This document shows positions 6,040 through 58,423 of a stretch of 64,000 nucleotides of DNA, in pieces; within the stretch, counting starts at the first letter, position 1; the number at the start of each line of letters is the position of its first letter. The notes beneath the pieces are model-generated. The model did not search any database and had not been told where the DNA came from. It saw nothing but the letters and a program-made list of their open reading frames with translations. Made by a program: the position numbers and the translations under genes. Source of the stretch: Eledone cirrhosa (lineage: Eukaryota). Location: assembly GCA_964016885.1 (NCBI GenBank), contig OZ024740.1:121954001-122018000 (forward strand). Reading direction: 5' to 3'.

Positions 6040-6430
6040 TATGATAAGTAACAGGAGGCGAGAATTTAAAAATCCTATGGGATTTCCCAATGAACACTGA
6101 CCGAGCGCGAAGGCCAGCAGAACTGATAAAATTGAGAAGGACCATGAAGAGAAAACATGTCTTAATCGATATGAGCATTTTACCAGCTCGTTACATCTCT
6201 TCGACAGTGTTGGGAAAGCTCAGTATGTATAAATAGCTATCAAGTGAAATGGAGAAAATGTGGCATCATAATACCTGCACATTACTACTGATATTCGGTG
6301 CACTCGGAATAATAAAAAGGGTACTGAAAGATATTTGTGCAAGATAAATGGTAAGAAACCTCCGTAAGATATATAGGAAATAGTGCTGTCTGGCACTCAT
6401 CCTTCTCTGCGAACGATATTTTCAATTGAA
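6040..6430 (+). pseudogene. Decayed 3' end of an R4/Dong-like non-LTR retrotransposon (restriction-like endonuclease)
   Basis: Manual translation across frameshifts gives KILWDFPMNTDR, LIDMSI, EMEKMW, IFGALGII and IVLSGTHPSLR, motifs typical of RLE-LINE C-termini. Confidence 0.7.
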
Positions 6431-13498: not shown

Positions 13499-13545
13499 TG
13501 CCGAAAGCCGTTTCGTCCGACCATATTGTGGGACTTTTCAAGGCA
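13499..13545 (-). ncRNA. Type I hammerhead, U3-A8 core variant
   Basis: Minus strand TGCC-TTGAAAA-GTCC..GGAC-GAAA-CGGCTT-TC-GGCA. Confidence 0.7.
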
Positions 13546-16500
13546 TATAACAGGTAATTGTAAGTTCATTATTGTCATCAACGTTTCACTGAAGATTAGC
13601 AGTTTGAAATCGTGGTATACATCAACAGCTCAACTTGTTTATCTGGGGTCTATATTCTAAGGGGGCTCTTTTATAATAGTTGTAGGAGTTGTAAAAGGGA
13701 TGGGTCAGAGGGAGTTAAGAGAATTTGAAAAGGGCCTAAAGGTTAGGGATTGAAGGTTAAAAATTAAAGAATTTAAAAGTTACGCATTAAAAGTAAAAGA
13801 CTTGGGATCCCTTAAAAGCACCTTAAAAAGCACCTCAATAAGCGCATAAAGCTTATAAGCCCTAATAAACCTAAAAAAACAGAAGAGATTTAGGGAATAA
13901 AGAAATTAAAAGTTTCCTAAAAAATTCCTTCAAAAAAATTTTTATAAAAATTCCCTTAAAAATGTTAAAGAAATTTACGAAGATTTAATAATTCCTACGA
14001 ATGTTCTAAACTTAAAAGTTAGGGGAAAAAAATACTTTCAAAAAGATTTAAGAGGTTAATAAAGTTAATGATTTAGGGAATCCATAATATACAGATTAAG
14101 ATTTAAGTTAGGATTTGAAGTTTAAGAGTTCCAAACTCAGAAATTTAGAAATTTAATGAATTTAAGATTAAGAAAACTTATATATCCAAGATTAAAAATT
14201 AAAGATTAAGAGGTTGAACATTAAATTTAAACATTAATAAATAAATAGTTGAAAGAAATAAATCAATTAAAGGTTAATTCAAAAAGCCTTCAAAAAGTCC
14301 TTCAGAAAAGGTTTATTTAATATTTTTAATAGAAACCTCTTCCGAAAGACCCTTGAAAGAATTAAAAATTTAGAGAACCCTCAAAAATATATATAAATGA
14401 ATTGAGGAAAATTACAAATTAAAAATACGGAATTTGGGAGGAATTTCAAAAGGGTTGCTTCAACAGATACAACAACTTAGGTATAATACATAAAAAAATA
14501 AAGTAATTTAAGTAATATAATTAAGGAGCAATTCAAAGAGCTTATCAAGTTGGGCTCGAAGATATATAAGAAAATATAAGATATATAAGAAAATATATAA
14601 GTAAAAAGACAATAATTATAAAATGTATTTTTAAGAAGGTATTAAATAGCTTAAGTAATCTAATAATGTATTATCAAAAAATTATTAATATAGGATTAAT
14701 AATGATATTAATAAAGATAAGCATGCACAGACTTAACCGGGAGATGACATGCGAATTTGAAAATGCCACAAGAGAGATCCTTTAGATAGCATAGACGCCG
14801 GACCATACCCGCAAATATCTACATATACACCGTGATCTATCTTGAATATGCATAACTGACAGGATATAGAAGCAACATGAATAATACGACCACCATCTAA
14901 GCTAGAACCGACCCCTACTACATATAACAACAAACAAAGAGGGGACAGTCCTTAGCATTTAACCAATCGCGTGTGAACTTGGAATTGGTGAGAGGAGGGG
15001 ATAATAGCGATAGACACAATATACCACCCCAGTCAAGTTCAAAACTGGACTTTTTTTACCAATATATCCTATACACCAATATACCCTATACAACAAAACC
15101 TTGGATTTAGAACCTGCAGGCTGATCTATCGCAAACGCGTGCGATCCCAAGCATGGCTTAATAACTGGCACGACCGAAACTACATGGAAAGGATCGAACG
15201 GAGCATACCCTGCGACCACTAGCTGTTTGATCAGCAGGTCCATCTACCAGAGAGTGCACACAGCTGATAGTGAATCCCAGTTGATTCGTGAACTCGGAAC
15301 TTTTCAACAAGACCAAATGTGCCCGGAGCTATGCAGGTGATTGCATGCGCACAATGGATATCGCACCTACAATGTCACCTATATTGTTCATCTTGCTGTA
15401 TATGTGTAAAGTATCCATGTGTTGGACATCCCTGAGTAAATTTGCATGACTGTTAATTGTTTGTTAAATAGGCAGGAATATAATTTTTTTGATAATACAT
15501 TATTAGATTACTTAAGCTATTTAATACCTTCTTAAAAATACATTTTATAATTATTGTCTTTTTACTTATATATTTTCTTATTTATCATTTTCTTTCATCT
15601 TCGAGCCCAACTTGATAAGCTCTTTGAATTGCTCCTTAATTATATTATTTAAGTTACTTTATTTTTTTATTTATTATACCTAAGTTGTTGTATCTGTTGA
15701 AGCAACCCTTTGGAAATTCCTCCCAACTTCCGTAATTTTTAATTTGTAATTATCCTTAATTCATTTATATATATTTTTGAGGGTTCTCTAAATTTTTAAT
15801 TCTTTGAAGGGTCTTTCGGAAGAGGTTTTTATTAAAAATATTAAATAAACCTTTTCTGAAGGACTTTTTGAAGGCTTTTTGAATTAACTTTTAATTGATT
15901 AATTTCTTTCAACTTTTTATTTATTAATTTTTAAATTTAATGTTCAACCTCTTAATCTTTAATTTTTAATCTTGGATATATAAGATTTCTTAATCTTAAA
16001 TTCATTAAATTTTTAAATTTCTGAGTTTGGAACTCTTAAACTTCAAATCGTAACTTAAATCTTAATCTTTATATTATGGATTCCCTAAATCATTAACTTT
16101 ATTAACCTCGTAAGTCTTTTTGAAAGTATTTTCTTCCCTAATTTTTAAGTTTCGAACATTCGTAGGAATTATTAAATCTTCGTAAATTTCTTTAAATTTT
16201 TTTAAGGGAATTTTCAGAAAAATTTTTTTGAAGGAATTTTTTAGGAAACTTTTTATTTTTTTATTCCCTAAATCTCTTTTGTTGTTTAGGTTTATTAGGG
16301 CTTATAAGCTTTATGCGCTTATTGAGGTGCTTTTTAAGGTGCTTTTAAGGGATCCCAAGTCTTTTACTTTTAATGCGTAACTTATAAATTCTTTAATTTT
16401 TAACCTTCAATCCCTAACCTTTAGGCCCTTTTCAAATTCTCTTAATTCCCTCTAACCCATCCCTTTTACAACTCCTACAACTATTATAAAAGATCCCCTT

Positions 16501-16614
16501 TAGAATATAGACCCCAGATAAACAAGCTGAGCTGTTGATGTATACCACGATTTCAAACTGCTAATCTTGAGTGAAACGTTGATGAAAATAATGAACTTAC
16601 AATTACCTGTTATA

Positions 16615-16660
16615 TGCCTTGAAAAGTTCACCATATGGTCGGACGAAACGGCTGTCGGCA
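16615..16660 (+). ncRNA. Type I hammerhead, U3-A8 core variant
   Basis: TGCC-TTGAAAA-GTTC(ACCATATGGTC)GGAC-GAAA-CGGCTG-TC-GGCA, with AATAAA starting at its last base; stem III ACGGCTGT is self-complementary with G-U pairs. Confidence 0.8.
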
Positions 16661-17193: not shown

Positions 17194-17962
17194 AACGAGT
17201 AGGACCCCGACGGCTGAGCTAAGGCCGTTTCGACGGCTAATTCTGGACTAAACGAAAATGTATATCCTGGTATATGAATAGCCGAGCTTCTCAGCGGGTA
17301 ATTCCATATATGGAAAAAGTGATTGTCACAAGGATTGGTCAAAAGTTTGTTGTTGAGACACATAATTCTATCATGGCAATTTGTGAAGGGAAGTGGTAGC
17401 TGAACCTGCCAGTAGAAGAAAGAGGGAGAGGGGGTGGAGGAAACCCAGTCGTGCGTTGATAGTGCCAACTACAGCTGGGCAGGAGGTCAAAGAACTATAC
17501 TAGGGAGGGCGAGGGGAGGAAGTTGAAACAATAAGTAAAACAATATGGGGTAAATATATAGAAAAATGTTTTTTTAACATTCTCGGTATTTGTCTATATA
17601 TTTACCCCATACTGTTTTACTTATTGTTTCGACTTCCTCCCCCTCCCCCTCCCTAGTATAATTCTTTGACCTCCTGCCCAGCTGTAGTTGGCACTATCAA
17701 CGCACGGCTGGGTTTCCTCCAGCCCTTCTCCCTCTTTCTTCTACTGGCAGGTTCAGCTACCCCTTCCCTTCACAAATTGCCATGATAGAATTATGTGTCT
17801 CAACAACAAACTTTTGACCATTCCTTGTGACAATCACGTTTACCATATATGGAATTATCCCCTGAGAAGCTCGGCTATTTATATACCAAGATAAAAATGT
17901 TCATTTAGTCCAACATTAGCCGTCGAAACGGCTTGAGCTCAGCCGTCGGGGTCCTACTTGTT
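17194..17962. repeat. ~370-bp-arm foldback of a PLE pLTR
   Basis: 17194-17567 is the reverse complement of 17588-17962 (mirror ORFs MALSTH.. on both strands); fragments of the same family at 10832-10865 and 22338-22430. Confidence 0.9.
17857..17952 (+). ncRNA. Hammerhead-like motif with full stem III and core CUGAGAA
   Basis: ATCCC-CTGAGAA-GCTCGGCTA...TAGCCGTC-GAAA-CGGCT TGAGCTC AGCCG-TC-GGGGT; mirror copy on the minus strand at 17204-17299. Confidence 0.6.
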
Positions 17963-21350: not shown

Positions 21351-22445
21351 ATACTTACACACATACACACGTACAAACATATGATTTAATAGCTTACAAA
21401 GACAAAAACATAAATCAATACAGTACAATACATTGAAACATTCGAACTCTATCACATGTTTCTGTAATCATTACATTAGCAGGTCAGTTATAATTTACTT
21501 TAATGCATCCATTATTATCCAAGTAATGCAGACTTAGTCGAATATATTAAAGTCAATTATCTGATCTTCGATGTCGAAAGGTTATGTTGAAAATTTGCCT
21601 GTGATTATTGTGAAAAGAAACATTGCAAATGGCTTGAATGGAATCCTCTTGAGAATGCTGGATTTACAAGTGCTTCGGGAAAATTCATTGCACAAAACCA
21701 ACAGTTTCGACGCATCATGAAAGGTATTATACTTAAATGCACTTTTATTGAGTGCTACACGTAATTGCAATGACGTAATACGAAAATTATTTCTTCCAAA
21801 TTACCTGAAAAATATCAATCATTTTCAACGTTATATTTGTTGTTGTTGTCATCGTTAATGTCACCGTTATTCTCGTAGCGGCTATAGCTCCATTGCTGCT
21901 TCATAAAATGGAATTTCAATCTTTTCAAAGATGATTGGTACTTCTTTATTGTTCTACATATTTCTAAAAATTTACCACACCATGGGTTGATATTTCAGTA
22001 TTACGCAATGGTGATTTACAATTATTAGGAAGGAAACAGGGCATTATATTCCACTATAGGAATATGTCCTCTAGCATTAAGTATGAATGATATCACATAG
22101 TAGTATGTTAATAGAAACAACCTTAACATTACCAGAATAATGAATGCAAGCGTGTAAAAAGAGTATGTATATATATATATATATAAATATATATATATAT
22201 ATTTATTTTATAGAAGGAGCTTCTACAGGACTAGTACTGTTTCATTCAGATGAATGAACGAGTATATATATAGGAACGAGTGGGAGCTTCTACATGACTA
22301 GTACTGTTTCATTCAGATGAATGAACGAGTATATATATAGGAACGAGTGGGACCCCGACGGCTGAGCTCAAGCCGTTTCGACGACTAATGCTGGACTATT
22401 TTAGTCCAGAATTAGCTGTCGAAACGGCTTCAAATTACTGATCTT

Positions 22446-23912
22446 GTGGGCCTCTTTCTCCTTTTCAACATAAATGCCTCCTTTCCCCACCTCAAAGGTG
22501 GTTTATATCGTGATGACTGTCTTCTTCTTTCTAACAACCTTAGCCTTTCAGAAATTGAAAAAAACAAAAAACATATTAGAACTTTCCTTAAAGACTATTA
22601 TAATCTTCATATTACTTTTGAAAAAACAAGTAAAGTAGTAAATTTCCTAGATATAACTTTAGATTTAGCTACGGGTATCTACCAACCTTACCATAAACCA
22701 AACCAAAACTTACATTACATACACTCACAATCTAATCACCCTAAATCTATCCTTAAAAACCTTGCATATAATATATCACTTAAAATTTCTAACCTTTCTT
22801 CTAACCAAGATGTATTTGATAAAAATGCGACCTTCTATAACGAAGCTCTAGATAGAAGTGGCCACAAAAATAGATTAGAATATATACCTTCTACTAAAAA
22901 TACTAAAAGCATACAACCTAATATTACCAACAAACACCAAATGAAAAGTACACACCTAAATGCCACCCACACTATACCCCAAAATACCAAATCTTCTAAT
23001 ATAAAATATAGTAACTCTCAAAAAACTACTCATCATACAACTCTAACAAATATTAATAATAAAACTCCTAATAAAAAGGATAAAACACCTAAATCTACAA
23101 ATATAACTAAAAATGGTTGTGGTGAGATCATTAACATTAATCCTCCTAGTAAACATCACGATACAACCTATAAAAATAATAAAAATAATAAACAACATAG
23201 AAACCGTAATAGACGGGTTACTTGGTATAATGCTCCATTTAATTTACAAATTAAGGATAATATTGCTAAAAAAATTTGTTATATCCTAGAGAAAAACTTC
23301 CCGCCAAACCACAAATACCATCAAATCTTAAATAGGTCTACAGTTAAATTCTCATGCTCTACAACAAATAACATAAAACAAAATATAAGTGCCTATAATG
23401 CATATAAATGTAAGAAAACCATAAGTATACCACCAGTACATCAAATTAACCATAATATCTCCTCAAATACAGAATTAACGAAAGGTTGTAACTGTAGAAA
23501 CAAAGCAAACTGCCCATTAAAAGGGAATTGTCTTGTTAACAACATAGTCTATAAATCTAATGTTAAAACTAAAGATTCTATTTGCTCATATATAGGAGCT
23601 ACCTCTAACAATTTTAAGACAAGGTTTAATACCCACAAGCATAGTTTTAAAAATGCCGCACTGGCTAATACAACATCTCTAGCAGAAAAAATCAATAGTT
23701 ATAAAAATAAGAATATAGAATATGATTTGACCTGGAGTGTGCTCAAAAGAGCCACCCCTTATAAAAATAATAGAAATGAATGTAGATTATGTTCCCAAGA
23801 ACTATTTGAAATAATGAAATCTAAGGATATCCTATTAAATAAACGACAGGAATTAATTATATCGTGTAATCATAAACTAAAAAAAATATTTAAATATTAT
23901 AAACCTAATTAA
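22446..23912 (+). CDS. PLE polyprotein C-terminal part: RT (YRDD), thumb, Cys linker, GIY-YIG endonuclease
   Basis: GGLYRDD, VNFLDITLDL, YIHSQSNHP, WYNAPF, CNCRNKANCPLKGNCL, NIVYK..YIGAT..FKTRFNTHK, CRLC; 488 codons without a stop; no true start (5' truncated). Confidence 0.92.
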   Translation: MGLFLLFNINASFPHLKGGLYRDDCLLLSNNLSLSEIEKNKKHIRTFLKDYYNLHITFEKTSKVVNFLDITLDLATGIYQPYHKPNQNLHYIHSQSNHPKSILKNLAYNISLKISNLSSNQDVFDKNATFYNEALDRSGHKNRLEYIPSTKNTKSIQPNITNKHQMKSTHLNATHTIPQNTKSSNIKYSNSQKTTHHTTLTNINNKTPNKKDKTPKSTNITKNGCGEIININPPSKHHDTTYKNNKNNKQHRNRNRRVTWYNAPFNLQIKDNIAKKICYILEKNFPPNHKYHQILNRSTVKFSCSTTNNIKQNISAYNAYKCKKTISIPPVHQINHNISSNTELTKGCNCRNKANCPLKGNCLVNNIVYKSNVKTKDSICSYIGATSNNFKTRFNTHKHSFKNAALANTTSLAEKINSYKNKNIEYDLTWSVLKRATPYKNNRNECRLCSQELFEIMKSKDILLNKRQELIISCNHKLKKIFKYYKPN

Positions 23913-29864: not shown

Positions 29865-31990
29865 ATAATAAAATTGAAGACTAAAATCCAAAGAGGGCTC
29901 GATAAGGAAAATATATATCACATATATAAGAACCGTAGAGCAAATATTTATTAAAATAACAGATTAAAGTTTAAGCAAAGAATCGCTGCTTTCACCCTTA
30001 ACGGGATCTTCTAAAACTAACAAAGTCAATCTGTAAACGCAGAACTGGATATTTCAAAAAACGTTGCAAGCGGAGGAAGACAGGAAGACGATACTTTGGT
30101 TCGTGGTAACGTTCGCTGGCAAAGAACGGGAAAAAACGAATAATACGTCATTAATAGGAGCGGTGAAAAACAATTACGCGCAAAGACAAAACCACGTTTA
30201 TGGTATAAAAGAGGTCGTAGACTAATGTTCTCTTAGGTGGTGCATAGAGACGTTCTCTGGCAATGAACGAAAAAACGAAGATAATAAGTCATATGTGGTG
30301 CGTGGAGAACAATAGCACGCAAAGACAAAACCACGTAAATGGTATAGCAGAAATCGTAGACTAAAATTCAAACTAGGAGACCAAATGAATCTCCGCTACA
30401 GAGTTAAGAACAAAGTAAATAAATACAATACAGAAGTAATAGAAACAAATAAATACATACATGCAAACAGTTACGTACATACACAAGCATACGCAAAACC
30501 TTACCATGGGTATACAAAACCACGCAAATATAAATCTGTGTGTGTGTGTATGCTTGTGTACAAATAAATAAATAATTATATAAACGTATATAAGTAAATA
30601 AATACGTATATAACAAGTGCACGCGCATACCTACATATAAATACACGAATGTTCGGAGACGTAAGTCAACTAAAACAAGAAGTACACATATACACACACC
30701 CACCATTCGTACGAACCTGCACACTCACGCGGACGCAAAACTCCCGTATACACATAGCCAAACCCTAAATACAAGAATATGTAAAAATTATACGCTATAA
30801 CAGTCAAATATACGTACGAGAAGGTATACATACCTTCACAAAACATACGGGTAATATATACTTACCTATGCAAATAAGTAAAGGAATAAACAAAACATAT
30901 ACTTAGCTCCCACATCAAGACGTAAAATATCCACGTATAGATCGTGCTATCCGTTAGGGTATAACGTGGGGCTGTAATACAGGAAAGTGTTGTGCAATTT
31001 ATGTTTACAAGCCGAAATTTCCTCAGATTTTTTGTTTAATATGTGGTCTGTAGCGTAGAGTATTTCCAGGGCCTCAGCGGCGCAGAGGTCACATGGTCTT
31101 TTATTTCCGTTATACGATCTAGCCCTAGCTAGGATCTCCCAGTGTAACTTATATTTGGTGTGGTTGTCTTTTAGACTCCAGATATAAGCTGAAAGTGACG
31201 TCATATTCCTTCTTAGAGGGTAACGAAAAGAATGGGTATGCATGTAAAGACGCTGCTTGAAACTATTGGCGGTTAACCCTATGTAGGCCCTACGGGACGT
31301 GGGTGTTACAACCTTACATTTATAGACAATGTTACTAGAGAGGCATTTCCCGGATAGAGGGCAATCAGCCCGATTCCTACAATTACAGTTAGTACTAACT
31401 ACAGGGTTGCACGTGTTCCTACGGCTGGGTAGTTTAGCTAAATTTGAAGCTGTGATGTTATGTGCAAGGTTAGGAGTCGTAGAGTAAGACATTTTAATAG
31501 TATTTCTATTAAAAATGTTATTATATTTATGTGTAGGGGGAAAATGCTTCGTAATAAGGGAAAGAAAGATCTTAGCTAATGGTGTGGCCACCTCCATATT
31601 ATATGGTGGGTTAAACCAACAAATGCGACGTGATCTATTTCTTCTAGGTCTATTTTCGTACTCTGTATATGCTACCTTATCGACAAATCCACTTCGAGCA
31701 AGAGCTTCATTGTAATAAGTGGAATGGTCGTTGAAAATGCGCTCGTTGGTTTTGTCTTTGCGCGTAATTGTTTTTCACCGCTCCTATTAATGACGTATTA
31801 TTCGTTTTTTCCGGTTCTTTGCCAGCGAACATTACCAAGAACCAAAATATCGTCTTCCTGTCTTCCTCCGGTTGCAACGTTTTTTGAAATATCCAGTTCT
31901 GCGTTTACATATTGACTTTGCTAGTTTCAAAAGATCCCGTTAAGAGTGAAAGCAGCGATTCTTTGCTTAGACTTTAATCTGTTATTTTAA

Positions 31991-35952: not shown

Positions 35953-35955
<3 letters not shown>
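35814..35955 (+). repeat. Dispersed ~140-bp repeat, second copy at ~37524-37655
   Basis: GAGAAACCACAGA..CCTCCATCTCAA..CCAGTTGCATTTTCGATTTCATCTTTTT in both. Confidence 0.8.
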
Positions 35956-36045
<90 letters not shown>

Positions 36046-36048
<3 letters not shown>

Positions 36049-36499
36049 GAAATTTCGTTTCATTTTTTCCGTTTATCGTTTTCGGTGCACCCGGCCGATT
36101 AACCCACTCAATATGCAAATTGGGCTACTCAGCCGTTAATATGCATAAGGTAAGTATATACGTTCAACAATCTGGCAGGAAGGTATACGTTGCTGACAAT
36201 AGCTAATAAGCTTGAAACTAGAACAGCGTTCCTTTGTCAGTGTTGAACAAACGAGCAACTATGATTGCTGGACACTACGGCTTAATACGGGATGTTTATT
36301 TACAAACTCACCGAGCATTATAATAAATGTTCGGTGAATCCATACGTACATATACATATATGTGTGCATGTATGTATATATATATATACATACTACTGTA
36401 CGTCTGTATACATATATGTATGTACGTGTACATACTTATATTTAAGTAACAGCCGTACTAAGAGTGGGAAATGAAATTTCGTTTCATTTTTTCCGTTTA
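36046..36499 (+). mobile_element. Retrozyme-like monomer: 424-bp unit + 30-bp terminal direct repeat, inserted in (TA)n
   Basis: AATGAAATTTCGTTTCATTTTTTCCGTTTA at 36046-36075 and 36470-36499; decayed HHR at 36187-36229; collinear with the 467-bp unit at 52-53 kb. Confidence 0.75.
36187..36229 (+). ncRNA. Decayed type I hammerhead
   Basis: ACGTTG-CTGACAA-T AGCT AATA AGCT T-GAAA-CTAG-AA-CAGCGT; G8>A and U16.1>A relative to consensus. Confidence 0.65.
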
Positions 36500-37239
36500 A
36501 ATATATATATATATATATATTATAAAACATGTCTATAAAATCACAAGAGAAAATATATACTATTTCCTCTCCCAATTAGCATAATTAACTATATAAAGAA
36601 TCGAATAGACCAGGCTATACGAATGAGGCTTCTATGAAAGAATCTCCGACAAATAACCAAAACTAGCGCTTCGCGTCGGCCGTAGCGGAATATTTATCGA
36701 ATATTTCGACAGCGTAATCGCCTAGATACAGTCAACTAAACAGAATTAGGTTTAAAATAAACTAGGAGAAAATAGAATACATTTAAAACCTCTGCCATGG
36801 TTTCGTCCGTGTTTTGAGTTTTCCAATAATTATGTAATAATTATATAAACTCGAGCGCCGGATTCTTCAGGAAGCTCGCTCATATCTAGACATTACATTT
36901 TCCAAAGCGATCGCGCCAAGAATTCATTTCAAAATGGCTAAAAATCGTGACGTTGTCGCAGTCAAGTTGGAAGAGGTGTGGTAGTTGCTTACACAGGTGG
37001 AATTTTTGCTAGAAAGCACAGCACAATACAGCCAAATTTGTATCTCAACCTAGTGGGAGATTATTACATATAAAAGTTTACATATATATATATACATACA
37101 CATACATATACGTGTTTTGCAACTGGTCACTTTGTGGCTCAATGAAAAATTAATAAATTAAACAATCAGAGCTATATATCATAAAAAATGTCTCTCTCTC
37201 TCTATATATATACATATATATATATATATAAATTGGTAA

Positions 37240-46776: not shown

Positions 46777-47745
46777 AGGGGGAAGAAAAAAATGGCTTCA
46801 CTTGTGCTTTCAACAAATTTATTTTCTTCACAAAATCCAAAAATAATTTTTTTCCGGATTAGAACATTTTTTTTTTCTTAAAAAAAATATTTTTATAAAT
46901 TAAGTTGTTGGTTGTTGGTTAGGTCTTGGGAGTTCTTGGTTAACGTAGGAGGTATTGTTTCGTTTTTAGAAAGACCTTTCACTCTGTGGTGCGCTTGTCA
47001 AACTGATGTGTATGTGGTGTGTTGTTCTATATATAGGGATTTAACATGTATGTGGTGTGGTGGGGGGGGGGGTTCTCCCCCTTTAATAAGTGTAGGGGTG
47101 TAGGTGTGTAGAAAAAATGTTAATAACAATAATGAGTTGAGACAGTGAGTAGGGTTGGGTGGGGAGAAATATAGCAAGTGCGGCCTGCCCCGGTCATTCT
47201 CGAAAAATTGCTTTATTCAGTGGAAAAAGATTTTAGTATTCCTTTGTTTCGAAGATGGTCATAGGCAAACCGCACCTGCCAAGCTTGTAAACAATTTTTT
47301 TTTTCTGAAGAATTTTTCTACATCCATCCCCAAATTAGTCCTTTGTTCAATACACACATATGTGCGTATATACGTACATACACACACGGGCATATGCAGG
47401 AATATATAGGCACCCAGCATCAATCACACACCCATGTACATATACATCCACATACATACATAAAAACATATAAAGACACATATAAAAACACATATACACA
47501 TACGTACACACACGAATATGTACTCATACCTCCACATGGGTATATATATATATATATACATACATACATATACATACATATACACACATAAATATACATA
47601 ACTAAATATACATATATACACATACACGCACACATACACACACACATACACACACGTGTGCACACACACACACACACACATATACATATGTCCGTATATA
47701 TACATCCGTTCACACATCCATGCATACACAAACACACATACACAC

Positions 47746-47783
<38 letters not shown>

Positions 47784-47787
47784 GCAT

Positions 47788-47818
<31 letters not shown>

Positions 47819-47881
47819 CATATATACATATATATATACACATAAACACATACATACACATACACACATATACATACATAT

Positions 47882-47974
<93 letters not shown>

Positions 47975-48032
47975 CACATACACATACAAACACATACATA
48001 CACACATACATATATACACATACATATACATA

Positions 48033-48064
<32 letters not shown>

Positions 48065-48129
48065 CATACATACACATACATACACACATATATATACATG
48101 TACACACAAACACATAAAGACACATATAT

Positions 48130-48180
<51 letters not shown>
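46777..48180 (-). repeat. ~1.3-kb inverted repeat, left arm (partner 57876-59183)
   Basis: Unique part 46777-47540 and the microsatellite pattern are reverse-complemented at 57876-59183 (mirror ORFs MGGEK.., NVGGIVSF..). Confidence 0.9.
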
Positions 48181-48189
<9 letters not shown>

Positions 48190-48190
<1 letters not shown>

Positions 48191-50934
48191 ATATAGATAA
48201 CTATGGGAAAGACCAAGAATATGAAGATAACTATGGGAAAGACCAAGTAAAACCCAGAAAACAAACCCATAGGAAACCCCAGAACTCAGGAAAATACAAC
48301 AACACAAGAAATGAAGCACCCACACACAATAAACCAACAACAACCAGATATTGGGTAACCCCAAACACACAACTACATACAGATCCAATACTCAACACCA
48401 CAACCAGATACAACAACTGCCATAACACCAAGAACAATTACCGGAGACAAAATCAAAGACACATGAATACTGAACGGAACAACAGAAGAAGCAGACCCCC
48501 ATACAGCAACGACCACGCAAGAGTCTATCGCCCACCCACTTACCGGCATGAAGTTCCGGCGGGCCAAAAGTTTCACCACAACAGAAACAACCCTATCCCA
48601 AATGGCACCCGTTTTTTAGGACTAGGAGCCTCGCACCAAATGAAAGAAAAAAAGAAAAAAAGCACCACCTTTCAAGTGGCAGCTGACGAGAAAGAACCAA
48701 TCGAACCAAAAATAATCAATATATCAGCCAAGAAAATAACACAACCAGAAATACAACTGTTAGAAAATGGACTGAAGTTCACTCCCACTCCGAAAGCAGA
48801 TACAGCCGATGTTATAAAAGACACAGAAGAATACTGTCAAAAATTACGCTTAGGAGAATTCTTCCAGGGTGTACAATACGAGGAAGAATCACTGGTGAAA
48901 AACAAAAAGAACTTCACACCCCCGCTAAATAGAGATAGATACCTGGAGGAGTACATAACCTGCCTTCGCCGATCAGCACGTACAAATACGGCCGAGACGA
49001 AACACAAACGCAACATCCCTACAGACCAACTACTAGCATTGAACAAGCTACAAAGGGGTTCCTCAATAATAATAAAATAAGCGGACACAGGTGGAGCAAT
49101 CGTCATCATGGACATAAACCACTACACAGATATGGTTCTAGCACACTTGAATGACGAAAACTTCTACAGGAAAATCACTAAAAACGAAGAAAGGAAATCG
49201 AGGAACCAAATAGGCAAACTAACAACAAAGTACCAAAACAACCTAACACCAAAGAAGTAGATTACCTTACCAACTTCGAAATGAAAACCAGCAATTTCTA
49301 TGGATTACCAAAAATTCACAAATCCATAGAAATCTAAAACAACATAAAAGGGAAAAATACATCATACTTCGAAGTACCAAAACCGACAGACTTAAAATTA
49401 CGCCCCATTATTGCTGTCCCAGCCTCAAGCACACAACGTCTAAGCAACCTATTAGACATCATACTCAAACCCCTATGTAAAAAAGTTCCAAGCTACATCA
49501 GAGATGATGTGGAATTCCTTAACTATATCCCCCAAAAAGTACACCAGGATACAATCCTAGTCAGTTTTGATGTGATAAGCCTGTACACTAACATCCCACA
49601 CGACCTAGGGATTGAAGCTGTGGACTTCTGGATTACAAAACACTCAAGTCACATTTCAGAAAGATTCCCCAAAGAATTCATCTTGGAAGGACTTAAATTA
49701 GTATTGGAAAACAACCAATTCCTCTTTGACAACGAACTTTATCTACAAATAAAAGGAACAGCCATGGGTACCAAAGCGTCCCCTACATATGCAACGCTCG
49801 TACTTAGAGGCAAAATTATATTCACAACTGCAGATAACATTCAGTCACGACTTCGCCTTCTACATTAATAAAAACTGGAAACATTACCTAGATGACTGCT
49901 TCATCTTCTGGAACAGAAGCCAAACAGACCTACAAAAATGTTATTCGATCTTAAACAGGCTTCATGAAGCTATACAATTCACCATGGAATGTAACGAAAA
50001 GGAACTGCTCTTTCTAGATATCCTCATCATCAAAGAAGGGGAAAATATCATAACGGACCTATTTTGCAAACCCACTGACACACACCAATACTTAAATTTC
50101 CGGTCAGTACACCCCTCACATACGAAAAGTAACATTCCCTTCAACATGGCGAGGCGCATCTGCACTATAGCAACACACCCCGTACTACAAGAAAAAAGAT
50201 TATGTGACCTGAAAAAATTCCTTAAAAAACAAGAATACCCGATGAAACTCATCAACGCAGCCATCTCCAAGGTTAAGAACATCCCAATAACAACACTGAG
50301 AAAACCAAACCCACAACATAAAAAAGAAAACCCTGCTATCTCTTTTGTCATCACTCACAACCCAGGGAACATCAACATTGTGAAAACTGCTAAGCAGTAT
50401 CTCCCGATTCTACAGCATTCTACCAAAATGAATGCACTCTTAAAAAAGACACAGATAATTTATAGCAGACGCCAAGCACCTAACCTTAAAAAACTAATTA
50501 CCAAGGCAAAATTTACGACCAACATGGAATCAATGCAAGTGACGAAATGCGGGGACCCTAGATGTGGAACCTGTGAACTCATCGAAGAGGGCAAACAGTT
50601 GTCCTTCAAAAACCATGATAATTTCAAGGTCAATGCAAACATGAACTGCAAAACGAAAATCCTAATATATTGCGCAACATGTCCACAGTGTAAAGAGTAT
50701 TACATTGGGGAAACCGGAACGGGACTACATGATAGAGTCCGGGTACATAAACAACAAATTAAAGACCCAACAGTCAGAAATACCACATATAGCTCACACT
50801 TTGCATCATGCGGGAAGAGAAAATTCACAATCTTCCCTTTCTTCAAGATATGGTCGGATAACGAACATTTCCGCAGATATAAAGAGGAATTCTTCATTGA
50901 AAAATTTAAACCACCACTGAACACGAAAAAATGA
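48190..50934 (+). pseudogene. PLE polyprotein (RT + Cys linker + GIY-YIG; Neptune-like), lightly decayed
   Basis: LLENGLKFTPTP, IIIK*ADTGGAIVIMD, FYGLPKIHK, SFDVISLYTNIPH, QIKGTAMG, YLDD, CGDPRCGTC, LIYCATCPQCKEYYIGETG; a few stops and frameshifts. Confidence 0.93.
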
Positions 50935-51448
50935 ATTAACACTCGGTGGTAAAATTCCATTTCACTACCCCCCACCCTCTTCGTATGTATACACATGAAT
51001 ATCTGAGTGAACGGTGAGACACACACATATATATGTCTAGGTATGTATGGATGTATGTACGTGTGGGTATATATGTGTGTATGTGCGTGTATATATATGT
51101 ATGGATGTGTGCATGTTTGTATTGTGTGTGTATATATATATATATATGTGTGTATGTGTGTATATATGTGTATGTGTATATGTATGTATGTGTATATTTG
51201 TATATATATATATGTATATATATATAATTAAGTTAAAGATGTACATCCATATATGTATACTGAAATACTAGTATGTATATGAATACACACACGTATACAT
51301 ATGTAGATGTACCAAGTTTTTTCACTGGTCACTTTACTGTGAGTGGCCAGCTATTCTGTATGTAAGCACACAGACAAACCGGTTTTTAGAGTCATATTGG
51401 TCTTTGAGGAAACACCTTTCCTCTATTCTCCAGAAAGCCAGACAAGGA

Positions 51449-51491
51449 ATATTGAACTAGTTTCGTTGTTGTTACAACTCATCAGCAATAT
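51449..51491 (-). ncRNA. Type I hammerhead ribozyme
   Basis: Minus strand ATATTG-CTGATGA-GTTG TAACAA CAAC-GAAA-CTAG-TT-CAATAT. Confidence 0.88.
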
Positions 51492-51915
51492 TTACCTATC
51501 TTCCGGCCTTTCTAGAGAATCGTAAAAGCACATATCGTTATATGATTTTTCTATGAAAATTAGTAGTGGGCAGACTAATTTGCATAGAGTGTGAGTAAGT
51601 GCCGGTTCAACGGAGACGATAAAAACAAATAAAGAAACGAAATTAAATTTCGTTTCGTTTGTAACTCACTTTTGTATGACTGACGCTTAAACAATTAAGT
51701 TAAAGATGTACATCCATATATGTATACTGAAATACTAGTATGTATATGAATACACACACGTATACATATGTAGATGTACCAAGTTTTTTCACTGGTCACT
51801 TTACTGTGAGTGGCCAGCTATTCTGTATGTAAACACACAGACAAACCGGTTTTTAGAGTCATACTGGTTTTTGAGGAAACACCTTTCCTCTATTCTCCAG
51901 AAAGCCAGACAAGGA

Positions 51916-51958
51916 ATATTGAACTATTTTCGTTGTTGTTACAACTCATCAGCAATAT
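51916..51958 (-). ncRNA. Type I hammerhead (stem III palindrome mutated)
   Basis: As above, but GAAA-ATAG-TT. Confidence 0.75.
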
Positions 51959-52284
51959 ATACCTATCTTCCGGCCTTTCTAGAGAATCGTAAAAGCACAT
52001 ATCGTTATATGCTTTTTCTATGAAAATTAGTAGTGGGCAGACTAATTTGCATAGAGTGTGAGTAAGTACCGGTTCAACGGAGACGATAAAAACAAATAAC
52101 GAAACGAAATTAAATTTCGTTTCGTTTGTAACTCACTTTTGTATGACTGACGCTTAAACAATTAAGTTAAAGATAACTTACTCACACTCTATGCAAATTA
52201 GTCTGCCCACTACTAATTTTCATAGAAAAAGCATATAACGATATGTGCATTTATGATTCTCTAGAAAGGCCGGAAGATAGGTAT

Positions 52285-52327
52285 ATATTGCTGATGAGTT
52301 GTAACAACAACGAAACTAGTTCAATAT
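52285..52327 (+). ncRNA. Type I hammerhead ribozyme
   Basis: Intact core CTGATGA at 52291-52297, GAAA at 52312-52315, palindromic ACTAGT; predicted cut after 52321. Confidence 0.9.
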
Positions 52328-52751
52328 TCCTTGTCTGGCTTTCTGGAGAATAGAGGAAAGGTGTTTCCTCAAAAACCAGTATGATTCTAAAAACCGGTTT
52401 TTCTGTGTGTTTACATACAGAATAGCTGGCCACTCACAGTAAAGTGACCAGTGAAAAAAATTGGTACATCTACATATGTATACGTGTGTGTATTCATATA
52501 CATACTAGTATTTCAGTATACATATATGGATGTACATCTTTAACTTAATTATTGAAGCGTCAGTCATACAAAAGTGAGTTACAAACGAAACGAAATTTAA
52601 TTTCGTTTCGTTACTTGTTTTTATCGTCTCCGTTGAACCGGTACTTACTCACACTCTATGCAAATTAGTCTGCCCACTACTAATTTTCATAGAAAAAGCA
52701 TATAACGATATGTGCTTTTACGATTCTCTAGAAAGGCGGGAAGATAGGTAT

Positions 52752-52794
52752 ATATTGCTGATGAGTTGTAACAACAACGAAACTAGTTCAATAT
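52752..52794 (+). ncRNA. Type I hammerhead ribozyme
   Basis: Identical motif 467 bp downstream; predicted cut after 52788. Confidence 0.9.
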
Positions 52795-53084
52795 TCCTTG
52801 TCTGGCTTTCTGGAGAATAGAGGAAAGGTGTTTCCTCAAAAACCAGTATGACTCTAAAAACCGGTTTGTCTGTATGTTTACATACAGAATAGCTGGCCAC
52901 TCACAGTAAAGTGGCCAGTGAAAAAACTTGGTACATCTACATATGTATACGTGTGTGTATTCATATACATACTAGTATTTCAGTATACATATATGGATGT
53001 ACATCTTTAACTTAATTGTTTAAGCGTCAGTCATACAAAAGTGAGTTACAAACGAAACGAAATTTAATTTCGTTTCGTTATTTG

Positions 53085-53130
<46 letters not shown>

Positions 53131-53258: not shown

Positions 53259-53371
<113 letters not shown>

Positions 53372-53583
53372 TTCGTTTCTGAATTTGTTTAGCAAGATTC
53401 TTTATCTGAAATCGTCTGTTGAAACCGATATTGTTATACTTTGGGAGGGTCATGTTGAAATAAGAAACACACGCACCAGTTACTTTCACTTCAATTTATT
53501 ATAATAAATTTATAATAAATTTATAAATTTATTATAATAAATTGAAGTGAAAGTAACTGGTGCGTGTGTTTCTTATTGGCAAC

Positions 53584-56500
53584 ATGACCCTCCCAAAGTA
53601 TAACAATATCGGTTTCCGCACACGATTTCAGATAAAGAATCTTGCGAAACAAATTCAGAAACGAAATATCGTAAGCCTTAGCCAGGCTAACAAGATACTG
53701 AAAACCACCATGTTCTGTTGTCTACGAAAACCATAACATCTCGACAACTGCACTTCATAAAAGAAAGTGCCTCGTCCTGAGTTTACACCAACACCATCAA
53801 CACCGACGTAAGAAGATTACAACTTACCAAAAAACAAGCAGATAGGCTAAAACGAACACTAATTCTAAACATAAAAAAGAAGATCTATAAAGAAATAAGT
53901 CATCAAGAAAAACATAAGCGTAACCTAATACAAGAAATAGCTAGGATCACCACACCAAGAGAGAAACTAATATTTATAAGCCTTATACGTCCTGAAGAAC
54001 AGTACATTACTCAAGAATGTGATAAGCACTTTAACAAGAAACTAAAGTGGCTTAAGCAGATAAAGCTAAATCAGGATACTATAGAGAATACCAATAGATA
54101 TCCCGACAAAATTGACGGTATAAATATGGCCGACACCTCATTAACGGATGAGTTCAACAACAACAACAACACCAATATATACGGCAACACAATAATAGAT
54201 AATTGTTTCTACTTTAGGCACAAGGCCAGCATTTACCCAGTACATTACTGGTACTTTATTTTATCGACCCCGTAAGGATGAAAGGCTAAGTCAACCTCGG
54301 CGGGATTTGAACTCAGACCGTAAAGATACGTAACTATGCTGGAAAGCATGGCGTCCGACCCTCTACCGATACTGCCAATCCAACACAATAACAGATAATG
54401 ATGAGTTATCTGTATTATGTTTGCCCCCGCGATTTGCGACATTGAAGAAGGTAAATATGATTAGTTGTCTGTCAGAAATAGAAACATCATTAACAAAACC
54501 ACGCTGGAGCCTCAAAAACAAAAGCAAAAACAAAAGCAACAATATACGCACACACATATACAACACACATCCCAACAACAACAGACACACAGACACAAAC
54601 AACAATAACAATAACACACACACCAACAACAACAACAATAATAACATACCCAGAAACAACAACAACAGACACACAGACACAAACAACAATAACAACACAC
54701 ACAACAATAATAACACACACGGAGACAACAACAACACACATCAACAACAGCACACATCAACAACAACAACACACACACATTCAATGACTCCCACCACCAC
54801 CACAATCTTAACAAACACACAGACAGAGAGAACAAGTAATGACAGTAGCACAGAAATCACAGAAATAAGGGAAAGCAATAGGATTAAAAGGAGAAGGGAG
54901 ACTAAGGACAAAGAAAATAACCAAGACGAACACACAGACACACAAAATAGGGTAGATAACAACAATGAGCCAGTGGAAAGAGACAGGAGTAATTATGAGA
55001 GACATAGAAACAACCATGAGGCTGTTGGAAATAGAAATAGAAACAACACAACTAACAATAACAATAGCACTAGTACACATAAAGCAGCAGCCTGGAACTC
55101 TACGTTTTATAATCCCTCCGATAAATCGTTCGACCTTCGACGAGTCCACGCCACGACTCTACCATTTAACAAACGCACGCAATTGCCGTCGCAGTTCGAT
55201 GAACAAACAGAAGCACAATTTAGTATAGCTCGATCCGAACTTAGAAATATTATAGAACAGTATAGCAAGAAGCATAATAGAATGGAGGCCCAGCAACTGG
55301 GAGAAAAATCTGCAAATGGCTTGCCTAAGCTCATGCAGCGCTCGCGTAATGGAGAGATAGCATGCTTTCCAACAGACAAGTCTGGCAGAATGTCGGTTGA
55401 CAGCCTGCCAAACTACATCCAGGCAATGCAACCCCACATCACTAACACAAGAGAGGTAACACCACAGGAGCATGAGGATAGAGATAAAGCCCTCAGTGAC
55501 CATATGGTGATGTGGACGAATATAATGCAGCCCAACAAAAGGACTGCCAACAACTTTCAAGCCTGGAACAATGACGTGCCGGCGTTGTATGGGCTTCGAA
55601 AAGACCATAAAACGGGCAGTGACCCTGTCGCGGGACCACCAACACGGCCAGTCTGTGCAGCTAACATTGCTAGTAACTACAGACTGTCCTACTTCCTCTC
55701 CCTGATCATACGCCCTATCATTGAAATGTCCCCAGATGTATGTGACAGTACGGAGGACTTCCTCAGCAGAATCGGCGTGAGTAACCGATCTAGGGACCTA
55801 ACAAATTGCATAATAGGTAGTATGTATGTTGTGTCCCTGTACCCATCTATTGACGTGGATTTTGCTGTGGAGAAATGCGTAGAAATGATCAGTGAGAGCA
55901 ATGTTGAGTTCCGTGGGATTGATACCAGTGAGCTGGGACTCCTACTTAAACTTACCTATAGTAATAATTACCTAGACACATATGACCTTAGCAACCTGTA
56001 CCCTACAAGAGCAGCAAGAGGCAGACCACCTACCATTACCTCAATGGCCAAGAAAACCCACATAGATAGATGGAACGTGTGGACCAGATCCATACGGACA
56101 CCCGAAAACCACGATGAACTGAAGAAAATGATTGCACATGCGGTAGGGGCCAGCATAAAACTAACCCTTAAGGAACATATGTTCAAATTTAGTGGAAAAA
56201 CATATTCCCAAGAGGAAGGAGCAGCCATTGGTTTTAGCATTGCAGGTGACATAGCTAACTTATTCATGGTATGGTGGGACAGTAGACTTAAACTTAAACT
56301 TAAAGAACAACTAGAAGACGCCTTAACCCTGATAATGTACTCCCGCTACGTTGATGATATAAAGATCGTAGTTAAGACACCCCCACTAGAGAACAGTCAG
56401 GAACTAGAGAAAAACACAATGGAAAGCATCCAGCAAATAGCAAACTCCATCCACCAGAGCATTAGAGTTACTATAGACTACCCAAGTAAACACCCCAACC

Positions 56501-57430
56501 ATCTATTACCTGTACTAGACACAGAGCTCTGGTTAGATACCATTAATAACAAAAAAACAAATCCTCCGTTCCCATTATGCCAAACCCATGACTTCCAAAC
56601 ATCTGATCCACCGAAACTCGGCCGTTTCGAACCATACCAAAATCAACATACTGATTGCGAATTTGGTACGGGTGATGAGAAACGTGTCCCGCATGTGCAA
56701 CCCCGAAGAACTAGAGAGACACATACAACACTTCATCCACCGTATGCAGTTCTCTGGCTACAATCAGAGAGATAAAATCAGAGTGTATAGAGGAGCCAGA
56801 ACTAAATGGGAAAAAATGGTAAATAATGATATAAATGGGACCTGTCCCTTGTATAGGAGCAAATTTTGGAATAGAATAGAACGAACTAGGAATAAGGCTA
56901 ATAGAATAAACTCATGGTATGATAGCAATAAATACTAGAGTGTAATGTTCATCGATACAACCCCTAGAGGTGAATTAGCTTACAAATTCAGAAGGGCCCT
57001 AAATAAACATAAACTCAAAATTAAGATAGTAGAAAGTCCAGGTACCTCCTTAAAACACTTATTAGCAAGACATACCCTTTCCAAAGACTCTCATGTATAG
57101 ATAAGAAATGTATAACCTGTAAAATAAGCCCCCATATTAACTGTAAAACTAGAAATGTAGTGTATAGCATAAGATGTACTGAAGGACAATGTAGAGACAA
57201 AAATATAGTGTACATAGGTGAGACAGCTCGTAGTGTAGGGGAATGGATAAATGAACACTGGTGAGACCTTCAAGATAGTAAAGAATCATCTATAATCTAC
57301 CAACATGCTAAAATAGAACACAAGGGTAAATTAGAGAACATAGAAATAAAAATAGAATCTACTCACAGAAAAGGCGCAATGTTTAGACAAATTACAGAGG
57401 CAATAAACAAAAGAATTACAACCAAAAGTA
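53584..57430 (+). pseudogene. PLE polyprotein RT + GIY-YIG, disrupted by a SINE, stops and frameshifts
   Basis: PTDKSGRM, LYGLRKDHK, PTRPVC, VVSLYPSI, QEEGAAIG, YSRYVDD, LPVLD, NVVYSIRC..YIGETAR; longest open part 54421-56775. Confidence 0.92.
54204..54380 (-). mobile_element. SINE inserted in the PLE ORF
   Basis: 19-bp TSD CAACACAATAAYAGATAAT at 54185-54203 and 54381-54399 (1 mismatch). Confidence 0.92.
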
Positions 57431-57675
57431 AATAGAAAATATGAGTGGAACAGCAACATCACAACTTACAATTAAGGACAAAATGAAAACACACACACAC
57501 GTAGAACAAACAACCAACCAGTAACATGTAAATAAACAAATAAATAAATGAACATAAACGCACACAGACACCCGGATGTGGCGCATGCGCAGACTGAGCA
57601 CACAACACACACACAGAAACAAAATGGCGTAGGACAGAACAAAGGAGAGGCACAGAAACAAAGAAAGGAATCCCC

Positions 57676-57720
57676 AGTCCCTGAAGAGGTCACAGAGTGT
57701 GTGACGAAAGAACTATGACT
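57676..57720 (+). ncRNA. Type I hammerhead in the PLE 3' region (slightly decayed)
   Basis: AGTCC-CTGAAGA-G-GTCAC AGAGTGT GTGAC-GAAA-GAAC-TA-TGACT. Confidence 0.75.
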
Positions 57721-57875
57721 ATATATAAACAACTATCTGGTTGTGGAACCAAGCAACCAACCAGAAATTTATAAATTTATAAATTTATTATAAATTTATT
57801 ATAATAAATTGAAGTGAAAGCAACTGGTGCGTGTGTTTCTTATTGGCAACATGACCCTCCCAAAGTATAACAATA

Positions 57876-57941
57876 TATATGTATATATATATATATATAT
57901 GTATATGTATGTGTATATATGTATGTGTGTATGTATGTGTT

Positions 57942-58004
<63 letters not shown>

Positions 58005-58007
58005 CTT

Positions 58008-58046
<39 letters not shown>

Positions 58047-58085
58047 GTATGTATATGTGTGTATGTGTATGTATGTGTTTATGTG

Positions 58086-58149
<64 letters not shown>

Positions 58150-58367
58150 TATGTGTGTGTGTATGCCTCTATATATATATATATATGTGTGTGTGTGTAT
58201 GTGTGTGTATGCATGGATGTGTGAACGGATGTATATATACGGACATATGTATATGTGTGTGTGTGTGTGCACATGTGTGTGTGTGTGTGTGTGTATGTGT
58301 GCGTGTATGTGTATATATGTATATTTAGTTATGTATCTTTATGTGTGTATATGTATGTATATGTATG

Positions 58368-58423
<56 letters not shown>

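What the first reader, a model, noticed from the sequence alone, without database searches (positions are those of the whole stretch)
36046..36499. Diverged 424-nt relative conserves the whole RNA fold by compensatory change and has terminal redundancy
Seen: collinear with the 467 unit in HHR sense but different in sequence, with helices kept in order. (1) GGAAATGAAAT/GTTTCATTTT vs AACGAAACGAAAT/ATTTCGTTTCGTT. (2) TATGCAAATTGGGCT/AGCCGTTAATATGCATA vs TATGCAAATTAGT/ACTAATTTTCATA. (3) HHR stem I ACGTTG/CAGCGT vs ATATTG/CAATAT, extended by GTTCAACA..CTGGCA/TGTCAG TGTTGAAC. (4) TCACCGAGCATT/AATGTTCGGTGA vs CTGGCCACT/AGTGACCAG. The insert is one unit plus 30 bp and starts at a different phase from the 51-kb left arm. 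Inference: selection acted on RNA structure, and 'monomer plus a bit' fits reverse transcription round a circular template. This points to an old, diversified structured-RNA parasite family.
Basis: partly seen in the sequence, partly recalled or inferred. Interest (0 to 1): 0.8.

Follow-up and report, generated by a model that had tools for sequence, protein, structure and literature searches.

The report
Ribozyme repeat carrying Penelope insertion signature
This is a likely dead copy of a very abundant, non-coding repeat with a hammerhead ribozyme motif (a known kind of animal retroelement), and thousands of its copies end at the same two points inside TA repeats, which likely shows that the enzymes of Penelope-like retrotransposons copy it into the genome, probably from a circular RNA.

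Summary
The observation largely holds. 36046-36499 is one 424-bp unit plus an exact 30-bp repeat, set in (TA)n. It is a true homologue of the 467-bp unit (70% identical in ungapped columns, z=15). This copy deviates at G8 and U16.1, while most relatives are intact. The genome holds 40,569 intact-core matches. The 30-bp repeat is not a target-site duplication, but ends are not randomly permuted either. 3' ends fall at two fixed sites about 60 nt apart (3,857 and 4,033 exact (TA)n junctions, against 2 at a control site), and 5' ends are scattered. In head-to-head insertions one arm uses each site (27 of 27). That is the 'tail' signature of Penelope-like elements. 5' ends show no pile-up at the ribozyme cut, so the template was a circle or an uncut multimer. 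Verdict: a new member of the known non-LTR retrozymes, with junction evidence for the enzyme that moves them. No autonomous partner was found; RNA was not tested.

The parts
36046..36499 (+). Whole insertion: 1.07 units of a ~420-430-bp hammerhead repeat (family A); single arm, 5'-truncated, 3' end at start site 1
   Evidence: best other copies 96-97% identical
35953..36046 (.). Left (TA)n target tract
   Evidence: (47 copies of TA)
36500..36521 (.). Right (TA)n target tract
36046..36075 (+). First copy of the 30-bp redundancy: element-internal sequence where the cDNA stopped, not a target-site duplication
   Evidence: the read-through form occurs 4,972 times in the genome
36470..36499 (+). 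Second copy of the 30-bp redundancy, ending at fixed 3' end 'site 1' (inferred start of reverse transcription)
   Evidence: 3,857 exact site-1/(TA)n junctions
36103..36109 (+). 3' arm of long-range helix P5; pairs with 36462-36468 across the unit junction (predicted)
   Evidence: G-C to A-U change between family-A subfamilies visible
36112..36147 (+).
36162..36248 (+). Extended hammerhead stem I: outer helix 36162-36169/36241-36248, inner helix 36172-36177/36235-36240, stem I 36187-36192/36224-36229
   Evidence: 2+2+4 two-sided changes between families A and B
36193..36223 (+). Type I hammerhead core: C3-A9 36193-36199, stem II 36200-36213, GAAA 36214-36217, palindromic CUAG stem III 36218-36221, cut site after 36223. 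This copy has A at G8 (36198) and A at U16.1 (36222): predicted inactive
   Evidence: 52 of 61 family cores have G8, 60 of 61 U16.1, 45 of 61 fully intact; Rfam HH9 matches the 467-bp relatives at E 4e-6, below its gathering score
36253..36271 (+).
36276..36282 (+).
   Evidence: 3 of 5 counted pairs two-sided
36308..36337 (+).
36340..36432 (+). Long purine-pyrimidine-repeat hairpin (predicted); its length varies between subfamilies
36434..36447 (+). Small hairpin whose loop holds fixed 3' end 'site 2' (second inferred start of reverse transcription)
   Evidence: 4,033 exact site-2/(TA)n junctions
36439..36499 (+).
51226..52174 (-). Family-B relative, left arm (2.0 units), 3' end at site 2 in (TA)n
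52176..53091 (+). Family-B relative, right arm (2.0 units), 3' end at site 1 in (TA)n; head-to-head with the left arm

Best explanation
This is a single, likely inactive copy of an abundant non-coding hammerhead repeat (a non-LTR retrozyme) whose copies end at two fixed sites inside (TA)n tracts, and it was likely inserted by the reverse transcriptase and endonuclease of a Penelope-like element (PLE) copying a probably circular RNA monomer. Steps: (1) loci with two or more tandem units are transcribed and the hammerheads cut out monomers, which a host ligase closes (inferred from described retrozymes; not tested here). (2) A PLE protein, probably a dimer, binds the structured tail region and nicks both strands of a (TA)n tract (inferred). 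(3) One nick primes at site 1 and the other at site 2, with 1-5 nt of pairing (the fixed ends and the one-of-each pairing are shown; priming is inferred). (4) Each cDNA runs back through the cut site without pausing, stops at a random point, and the two ends join, often by short microhomology (the end distribution is shown). The window copy is such a product with one arm of 1.07 rounds and the other absent or 1 nt long. It holds one mutated ribozyme, so it cannot yield a monomer. Confidence by step: retrozyme class 0.95; PLE-type machinery 0.85; circular template 0.65.
For: Fixed 3' ends: 53 of 65 arm ends in 43 insertions from the first pattern hits on C1 lie at site 1 (28) or site 2 (25) (hand-classified, one borderline). 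Genome-wide exact junctions with (TA)n: 3,857 (site 1), 4,033 (site 2), 2 at another TTTA of the unit. One-of-each pairing in head-to-head insertions: 27 of 27 from listed coordinates, p=6.5e-9; 25 of 25 hand-curated across families A, B, D and E (at least one locus shared). The same sites are used at (CAT)n targets (L006, L065). PLEs are described with a tail on one end, an inverted 5'-truncated copy and microsatellite targets (10.1101/2021.04.23.441226, passages). A PLE protein starts at two internal RNA sites that bound the tail and nicks and extends both strands (PMC11167929). The genome is rich in PLE-type ORFs, many open for 796 or 830 aa. A PLE-like element in this window shows the same tail-on-one-arm layout. 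5' ends: 1 of 62 within 5 nt of the cut site against 1.5 expected, uniform overall (KS p=0.34). Arrays reach 31 units, and young ones are near-identical on both arms (L197, L209). The catalytic core is kept in 45 of 61 A and 55 of 55 B cores examined; a cut linear monomer could template only about 280 nt from site 1, so a cut RNA must be closed (or jumped across) to give a full unit.
Against: No autonomous PLE with a terminal repeat homologous to these units was found (18 candidate stretches, best z 2.6, against 13 for A vs B). The tail is longer than the 30-40 bp usually quoted. Stem III is weak (palindromic CUAG), so uncut multimers probably exist and could be the template; in vitro the PLE hammerhead was not needed for insertion (PMC11167929). 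Several long arrays carry variants shared by non-adjacent units (L091+L092, L198+L199, L201, L204), so array length partly reflects growth after insertion. In most multi-unit loci the units are no closer to each other than to the nearest unit at another sampled locus. Covariation rests on three deep lineages and on helices chosen from these same sequences.
Confidence: 0.62

Rival explanations
1. Same PLE machinery, but the template is an uncut linear multimeric transcript; long arrays grow afterwards by unequal exchange. The hammerhead would only trim read-through transcripts.
For: It also predicts no pile-up at the cut site. The weak stem III suggests partial cleavage (axolotl parallel, PMC7229834). 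Hammerhead mutants did not affect PLE insertion in vitro. Non-adjacent shared variants and period-like patterns occur in arrays.
Against: An active ribozyme in every unit destroys this template, yet the core and its stems are conserved with compensation. Arrays of 15-17 near-identical units span both arms (L197, L209). Some arrays share private variants on both arms (L204: 1.0 between arms vs 4.7 to the nearest other locus; L206: 1.2 vs 4.9), though only 78 loci were sampled.
Confidence: 0.25
2. The inverted arm arises by fold-back copying of the first cDNA (self-priming), with the second end cut at the DNA level, not by a second priming on RNA.
For: Palindromic junctions were read this way for rotifer PLEs (PMC3846280, passages). 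7 of 35 junctions have 5' phases within 20 nt, against 3.2 expected.
Against: 28 of 35 junctions are not palindromic; 18 of 29 show a 1-9-nt overlap. Either arm can be the far longer one (30.7 vs 0.7 units at L091+L092; 2.4 vs 7.5 at L098).
Confidence: 0.08
3. A conventional LINE (for example RTE or L2 type) mobilises it by 3'-end recognition, with L1-like twin priming making the inversions.
For: 5' truncation, 5' inversion and microsatellite-joined 3' ends are also LINE features (recalled).
Against: Both starts are internal and fixed, and they pair one-of-each. In L1 twin priming the inverted arm ends next to where the first arm starts (recalled), which holds for only a few loci here.
Confidence: 0.04
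4. It is a DNA satellite or DNA-level palindrome whose 'compensation' comes from conversion between hairpin arms, with no RNA function.
For: The opposite strand also folds well (z about -7 to -9.5); no RNA was examined.
Against: Canonical hammerhead core conserved across 70%-identical families, G-U-tolerant changes on one strand, long-range helices, dispersal on many chromosomes with fixed 3' and truncated 5' ends.
Confidence: 0.01

Closest known systems
Metazoan non-LTR retrozymes (PMC7229834; coral, mussel, axolotl)
   Same: Short AT-rich non-coding tandem units with one type I hammerhead each, highly self-paired predicted circle with the ribozyme free to fold, thousands to 10^5 copies, co-occurrence with PLEs; weak palindromic stem III like axolotl HHR_Amex1.
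   Different: Units of 420-500 bp are at or above the 150-450-bp range quoted there. In the parts read (parts 2-4 of 6) that paper leaves the priming site and the enzyme open and reports no fixed internal ends, tail or head-to-head arms. Cleavage and circles are shown there, untested here.
Vertebrate non-LTR retrozymes as PLE derivatives (bioRxiv 10.64898/2026.07.22.740005)
   Same: Proposes PLE origin and PLE-driven mobilisation; monomers, dimers and multimers.
   Different: Its evidence is co-occurrence and pLTR homology in Xenopus; it did not analyse junctions or molluscs in the text read (parts 1-3 of 5; supplements closed). Here the junction signature is present but pLTR homology was not found.
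Penelope-like elements (Poseidon PAc, PMC11167929; Neptune/Naiad structure, 10.1101/2021.04.23.441226)
   Same: Two internal start sites bounding a tail, tail on one end only, inverted 5'-truncated arm, partial tandems, AT-rich/(TA)n targets, type I hammerhead.
   Different: No ORF; tail 56-74 nt instead of 30-40; canonical hammerhead with a long stem I. In vitro PAc showed no difference in start site between strands, whereas here the two ends of one insertion always use different sites.
Non-autonomous Chlamys PLEs such as MRC1 (10.1101/2021.04.23.441226, passage)
   Same: [quoted passage not shown]
   Different: Chlamys elements mostly lack hammerheads, and the non-autonomous ones resemble their partners at the 3' end; no such partner was found here.

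Membership tests
Non-LTR retrozyme | Type I hammerhead with canonical core in each unit | tested here: met
   Met for the family: 45 of 61 A cores and 55 of 55 B cores examined are intact; 40,569 genome matches vs 7 for the reversed pattern. The window copy itself deviates at G8 and U16.1.
Non-LTR retrozyme | Short units in tandem arrays, dispersed in many copies | tested here: met
   Units of 420-500 bp; arrays of 1 to 31 units on many contigs
Non-LTR retrozyme | No protein-coding capacity, low GC | tested here: met
   No stop-to-stop frame of 120 aa or more overlaps 36046-36499; regional GC 0.33
Non-LTR retrozyme | No LTR, primer-binding site or polypurine tract | not tested
   No LTR layout in the mapped copies, but no explicit search for a primer-binding site or polypurine tract was run
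Non-LTR retrozyme | Highly self-paired predicted circle with the ribozyme free to fold | tested here: met
   z -7.8 and -12.1 against 40 shuffles each; same helix order in 5 of 5 natural units folded
Non-LTR retrozyme | Target-site duplication longer than 4 bp when present | tested here: inconclusive
   Targets are (TA)n on both sides, so a duplication cannot be seen; the 30-bp repeat is element-internal
Non-LTR retrozyme | Self-cleavage of the transcript | not testable with these tools
   Needs in vitro transcription
Non-LTR retrozyme | Expression as linear and circular monomers | not testable with these tools
   Needs northern blot or RNase R-treated RNA
Penelope-like element (autonomous) | ORF with RT and GIY-YIG endonuclease | tested here: not met
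   No ORF in the unit; it is not filed as an autonomous PLE
PLE-mobilised element (works like) | Two fixed internal 3' ends bounding a tail, tail on one end only | tested here: met
   27 of 27; 25 of 25
PLE-mobilised element (works like) | Inverted 5'-truncated arm and microsatellite target | tested here: met
PLE-derived element | Sequence homology to the terminal repeat of an autonomous PLE | tested here: inconclusive
   None in 30 loci of one PLE family, none seen in 20 loci plus one whole unit of a second (read by eye and by hammerhead scan), none in 18 other hammerhead-linked stretches; only a small part of the genome's PLE families was sampled
Viroid-like replicating circular RNA | RNA-to-RNA replication | not testable with these tools
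   No data; not claimed

The most novel reading that the evidence does not exclude
These thousands of insertions record, in vivo, a Penelope protein dimer priming both strands of a cut microsatellite at two different sites on one circular ribozyme RNA and rolling both cDNAs round it. That would name the enzyme class and the priming sites for animal retrozymes, show the circle is the template, and explain the PLE tail and head-to-head structure as coordinated two-site priming.
Probability: 0.5. Interest if true: 0.7.

Novelty: new member of a known kind. Interest (0 to 1): 0.48.

Why it matters
Animal retrozymes are described, but which reverse transcriptase moves them and where it primes was left open in the papers read. 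This family gives junction-level evidence: two fixed start sites, always paired one of each, in a PLE-rich genome. It also sharpens the PLE mechanism, since the in vitro study saw no strand difference in start site. It supplies a small (420-470 nt) natural substrate with a covariation-supported fold for a direct test. Intact-core copies alone would cover roughly 0.6% of this genome (40,569 x about 440 bp; rough inference). The locus itself is ordinary: one dead copy among thousands.

Tried and rejected
Target-site duplication: rejected; the 30-mer is internal sequence. Random permutation of both ends: rejected for 3' ends. Priming at any TTTA by microhomology alone: rejected (2 junctions at the one control site tested). 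Linear HHR-cut monomer as sole template: disfavoured, no 5' pile-up at the cut. Rfam: 171 matches at E up to 1, of which 150 were listed; mostly microRNA models on TA/TG repeats, none at its gathering score; no hammerhead match among those listed for the window copy. Search for the autonomous partner: the 796-aa and 830-aa PLE-type families, 30 GIY-YIG loci and the other hammerhead families in the fetched flanks gave no homology to the units. Within- versus between-locus divergence as a test of circle versus multimer was not decisive: 78 loci sampled out of thousands, with mixed patterns. Sequencing runs: no RNA holder listed; 15 of 18 rows hold part of the stretch under 11 organism labels, but none was laid, so presence in related species and expression remain open. 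Earlier scan findings: three look-ups, nothing. Literature searches that found no description of this family or of junction mapping in retrozymes: (open-access library only; Repbase and Dfam not searchable). R-scape and LocARNA were not available.

Full report
Observation. The stretch 36046-36499 is 454 bp: a 424-bp unit followed by an exact repeat of its first 30 bp, between (TA)n tracts. The unit is homologous to the 467-bp unit at 51.2-53.1 kb: 286 of 482 columns identical, 70% of ungapped columns, z=15 against 200 dinucleotide shuffles, while the reverse and reverse-complement controls score at shuffle level. I call these families A and B. The genome is 3.0 Gb and rich in microsatellites. 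It resembles an octopus genome, which is my recollection of size and chromosome pattern and was not tested.

The ribozyme. Each unit holds a type I hammerhead with a palindromic CUAG stem III. Rfam's HH9 model matches the family-B copies at E 4e-6 to 2e-4, below its gathering score. The window copy has A at G8 and A at U16.1. Among 61 family-A cores from 26 loci, 52 have G8, 60 have U16.1 and 45 are fully intact; 55 of 55 family-B cores from 12 loci pass. A tight core pattern has 40,569 matches in the genome against 7 for the reversed pattern. Further subfamilies (D, about 484 bp; E, 466 bp) appear among the first hits.

The fold. Folded as circles, A and B reach z -7.8 and -12.1 against 40 shuffles each and are more stable on the ribozyme strand. 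Five natural units of A, D, E and B give the same order of helices. Four further helices predicted by RNAalifold have 9 of 31 (slid 1-2). A hand registration of one A and one B unit gives 72 pairs: 41 same, 6 one-sided, 21 two-sided, 4 broken. Against this: helix 2 has no two-sided change, helix 1's register is ambiguous, helices were chosen from these sequences, and only three deep lineages contribute. The pair-count measure did not clear its shuffle control (197 and 29 of 500 shuffles as high). Selection on RNA structure is well supported for the hammerhead arm and the long-range helix P4, not proven for 'the whole fold'.

The ends. I mapped 30 best A hits and 30 best B hits and the loci covering 99 of the first 100 pattern hits on C1 (43 insertions). 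In that last sample 53 of 65 arm 3' ends fall at one of two sites, site 1 just 3' of helix 1 (28) or site 2 in the loop of a small hairpin 56-74 nt upstream (25); 12 fall elsewhere (classified by hand, one borderline; one supposed second arm was dropped). Most abut (TA)n, a few (CAT)n. Genome-wide, exact junctions with (TA)n number 3,857 at site 1 and 4,033 at site 2, against 2 at another TTTA of the unit; the read-through form at site 1 occurs 4,972 times. 5' ends are uniform round the unit (62 ends, KS p=0.34), with 1 within 5 nt of the ribozyme cut against 1.5 expected. The window copy ends at site 1, as does the right arm of the 51-kb array. Its 30-bp redundancy is a cDNA that stopped after 1.07 rounds, not a target duplication.

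The pairing rule. Many insertions are head-to-head, with both 3' ends outward in (TA)n. From the listed coordinates of 87 site-1 and 100 site-2 junctions on C1, all 27 head-to-head neighbours within 6 kb pair one site 1 with one site 2 (p=6.5e-9; one 5.2-kb pair may be two events). The hand-curated set gives 25 of 25 across four subfamilies. Of 29 central junctions, 18 overlap by 1-9 nt, 2 are blunt, 8 have a gap and 1 overlaps by 16; 7 of 35 are near-palindromic against 3.2 expected. Either arm can be the longer one, and some single-armed copies show a second arm of only 10-25 nt (L080, L101, L110, L138).

Comparison with what is known. Non-LTR retrozymes are described as short tandem units with type I hammerheads, expressed as circles in coral, mussel and axolotl, with PLEs proposed as the mobiliser (PMC7229834, parts 2-4 of 6 read; PMC7761336, passages). 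A 2026 preprint adds co-occurrence and terminal-repeat homology in Xenopus (10.64898/2026.07.22.740005, parts 1-3 of 5 read; supplements not seen and may list further species). PLEs show a tail on one end, an inverted truncated copy and microsatellite targets (10.1101/2021.04.23.441226, passages; PMC3846280, passages). A purified PLE protein nicks and extends both strands and starts at two internal RNA sites that bound the tail (PMC11167929, parts 1-3 of 4 read). The ends mapped here match that signature. The genome has abundant PLE-type ORFs (RT and GIY-YIG hits), and one PLE-like element in this window shows a tailed inverted arm on one side and an untailed end on the other. I found no PLE terminal repeat homologous to A or B, so descent from a PLE is not shown. 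Searches found no account of this family or of junction mapping in retrozymes.

Circle or multimer. The lack of a 5' pile-up at the cut site excludes a plain linear monomer but not an uncut multimer. For the circle: a conserved cutter in every unit, arrays of 15-17 near-identical units spanning both arms (L197, L209) and private variants shared by both arms (L204, L206). Against: a weak stem III, long arrays with variants shared by non-adjacent units (growth or conversion after insertion), and within-locus distances often no smaller than to the nearest other sampled locus. I put the circle at about 0.65.

Verdict. A real feature and a new member of a known class. The locus is a dead copy. The value lies in the family's junctions, which tie an animal retrozyme to PLE-type two-site priming and make the mechanism directly testable. 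Interest 0.48.

Noticed in passing
window 48118-50934 (+): Frameshifted PLE-type element with RT and C-terminal GIY-YIG hits; its family has many copies with 796-aa open frames. The family-B array at 51.2 kb sits in a TA tract of its repeat-rich 3' region.
   Followed up: partly
window 22416-23912 (+) and 30947-31774 (-): PLE-type ORFs with no Pfam hit. The first belongs to a very young family with 830-aa open frames, a unit of about 6.6 kb, tandem and head-to-head copies and no hammerhead found by my scan.
   Followed up: partly
window 53369-57880: PLE-like element with an inverted left arm carrying a tail of about 60 nt, a broken ORF, and a right terminal repeat with a degenerate hammerhead (core at 57681), both ends in (TA)n.
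   Followed up: partly
L007, L012, L015, L026, L027, L058, L059, L070, L085, L097, L103, L107, L110, L125, L133 (flanks): Several other hammerhead families, often as short head-to-head inserts in (TA)n with a tail on one arm; in L085 the tail runs into an ORF start like that of the 830-aa family.
   Followed up: partly
L210 about 4950-6050 (also L063/L064): An unrelated tandem repeat of about 402 bp directly abuts a family-B arm; no hammerhead found by my scan.
   Followed up: no
L201 (G000:C11 3295500-3304500) and L091+L092: Arrays whose units share variants with non-adjacent units in partly periodic order; unequal exchange, conversion or switching among several RNA templates are all possible.
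   Followed up: partly
window 13533-14426 with 15735-16627: Long inverted repeats (90-96% complementary) round a 1.3-kb core; element type not examined.
   Followed up: no
window 47073-48097 with 57865-58889: 1-kb inverted repeat pair, 82% complementary, enclosing the two PLE-like elements and the family-B array.
   Followed up: no
window 17479-17677: A 200-bp near-perfect hairpin, matched by chance to plant microRNA models below their gathering scores; possibly a very short head-to-head insert.
   Followed up: no
window 22216-22352: Two 67-bp tandem copies just upstream of the 22.4-kb ORF, resembling a short repeat end that recurs beside (TA)n in many fetched flanks.
   Followed up: no
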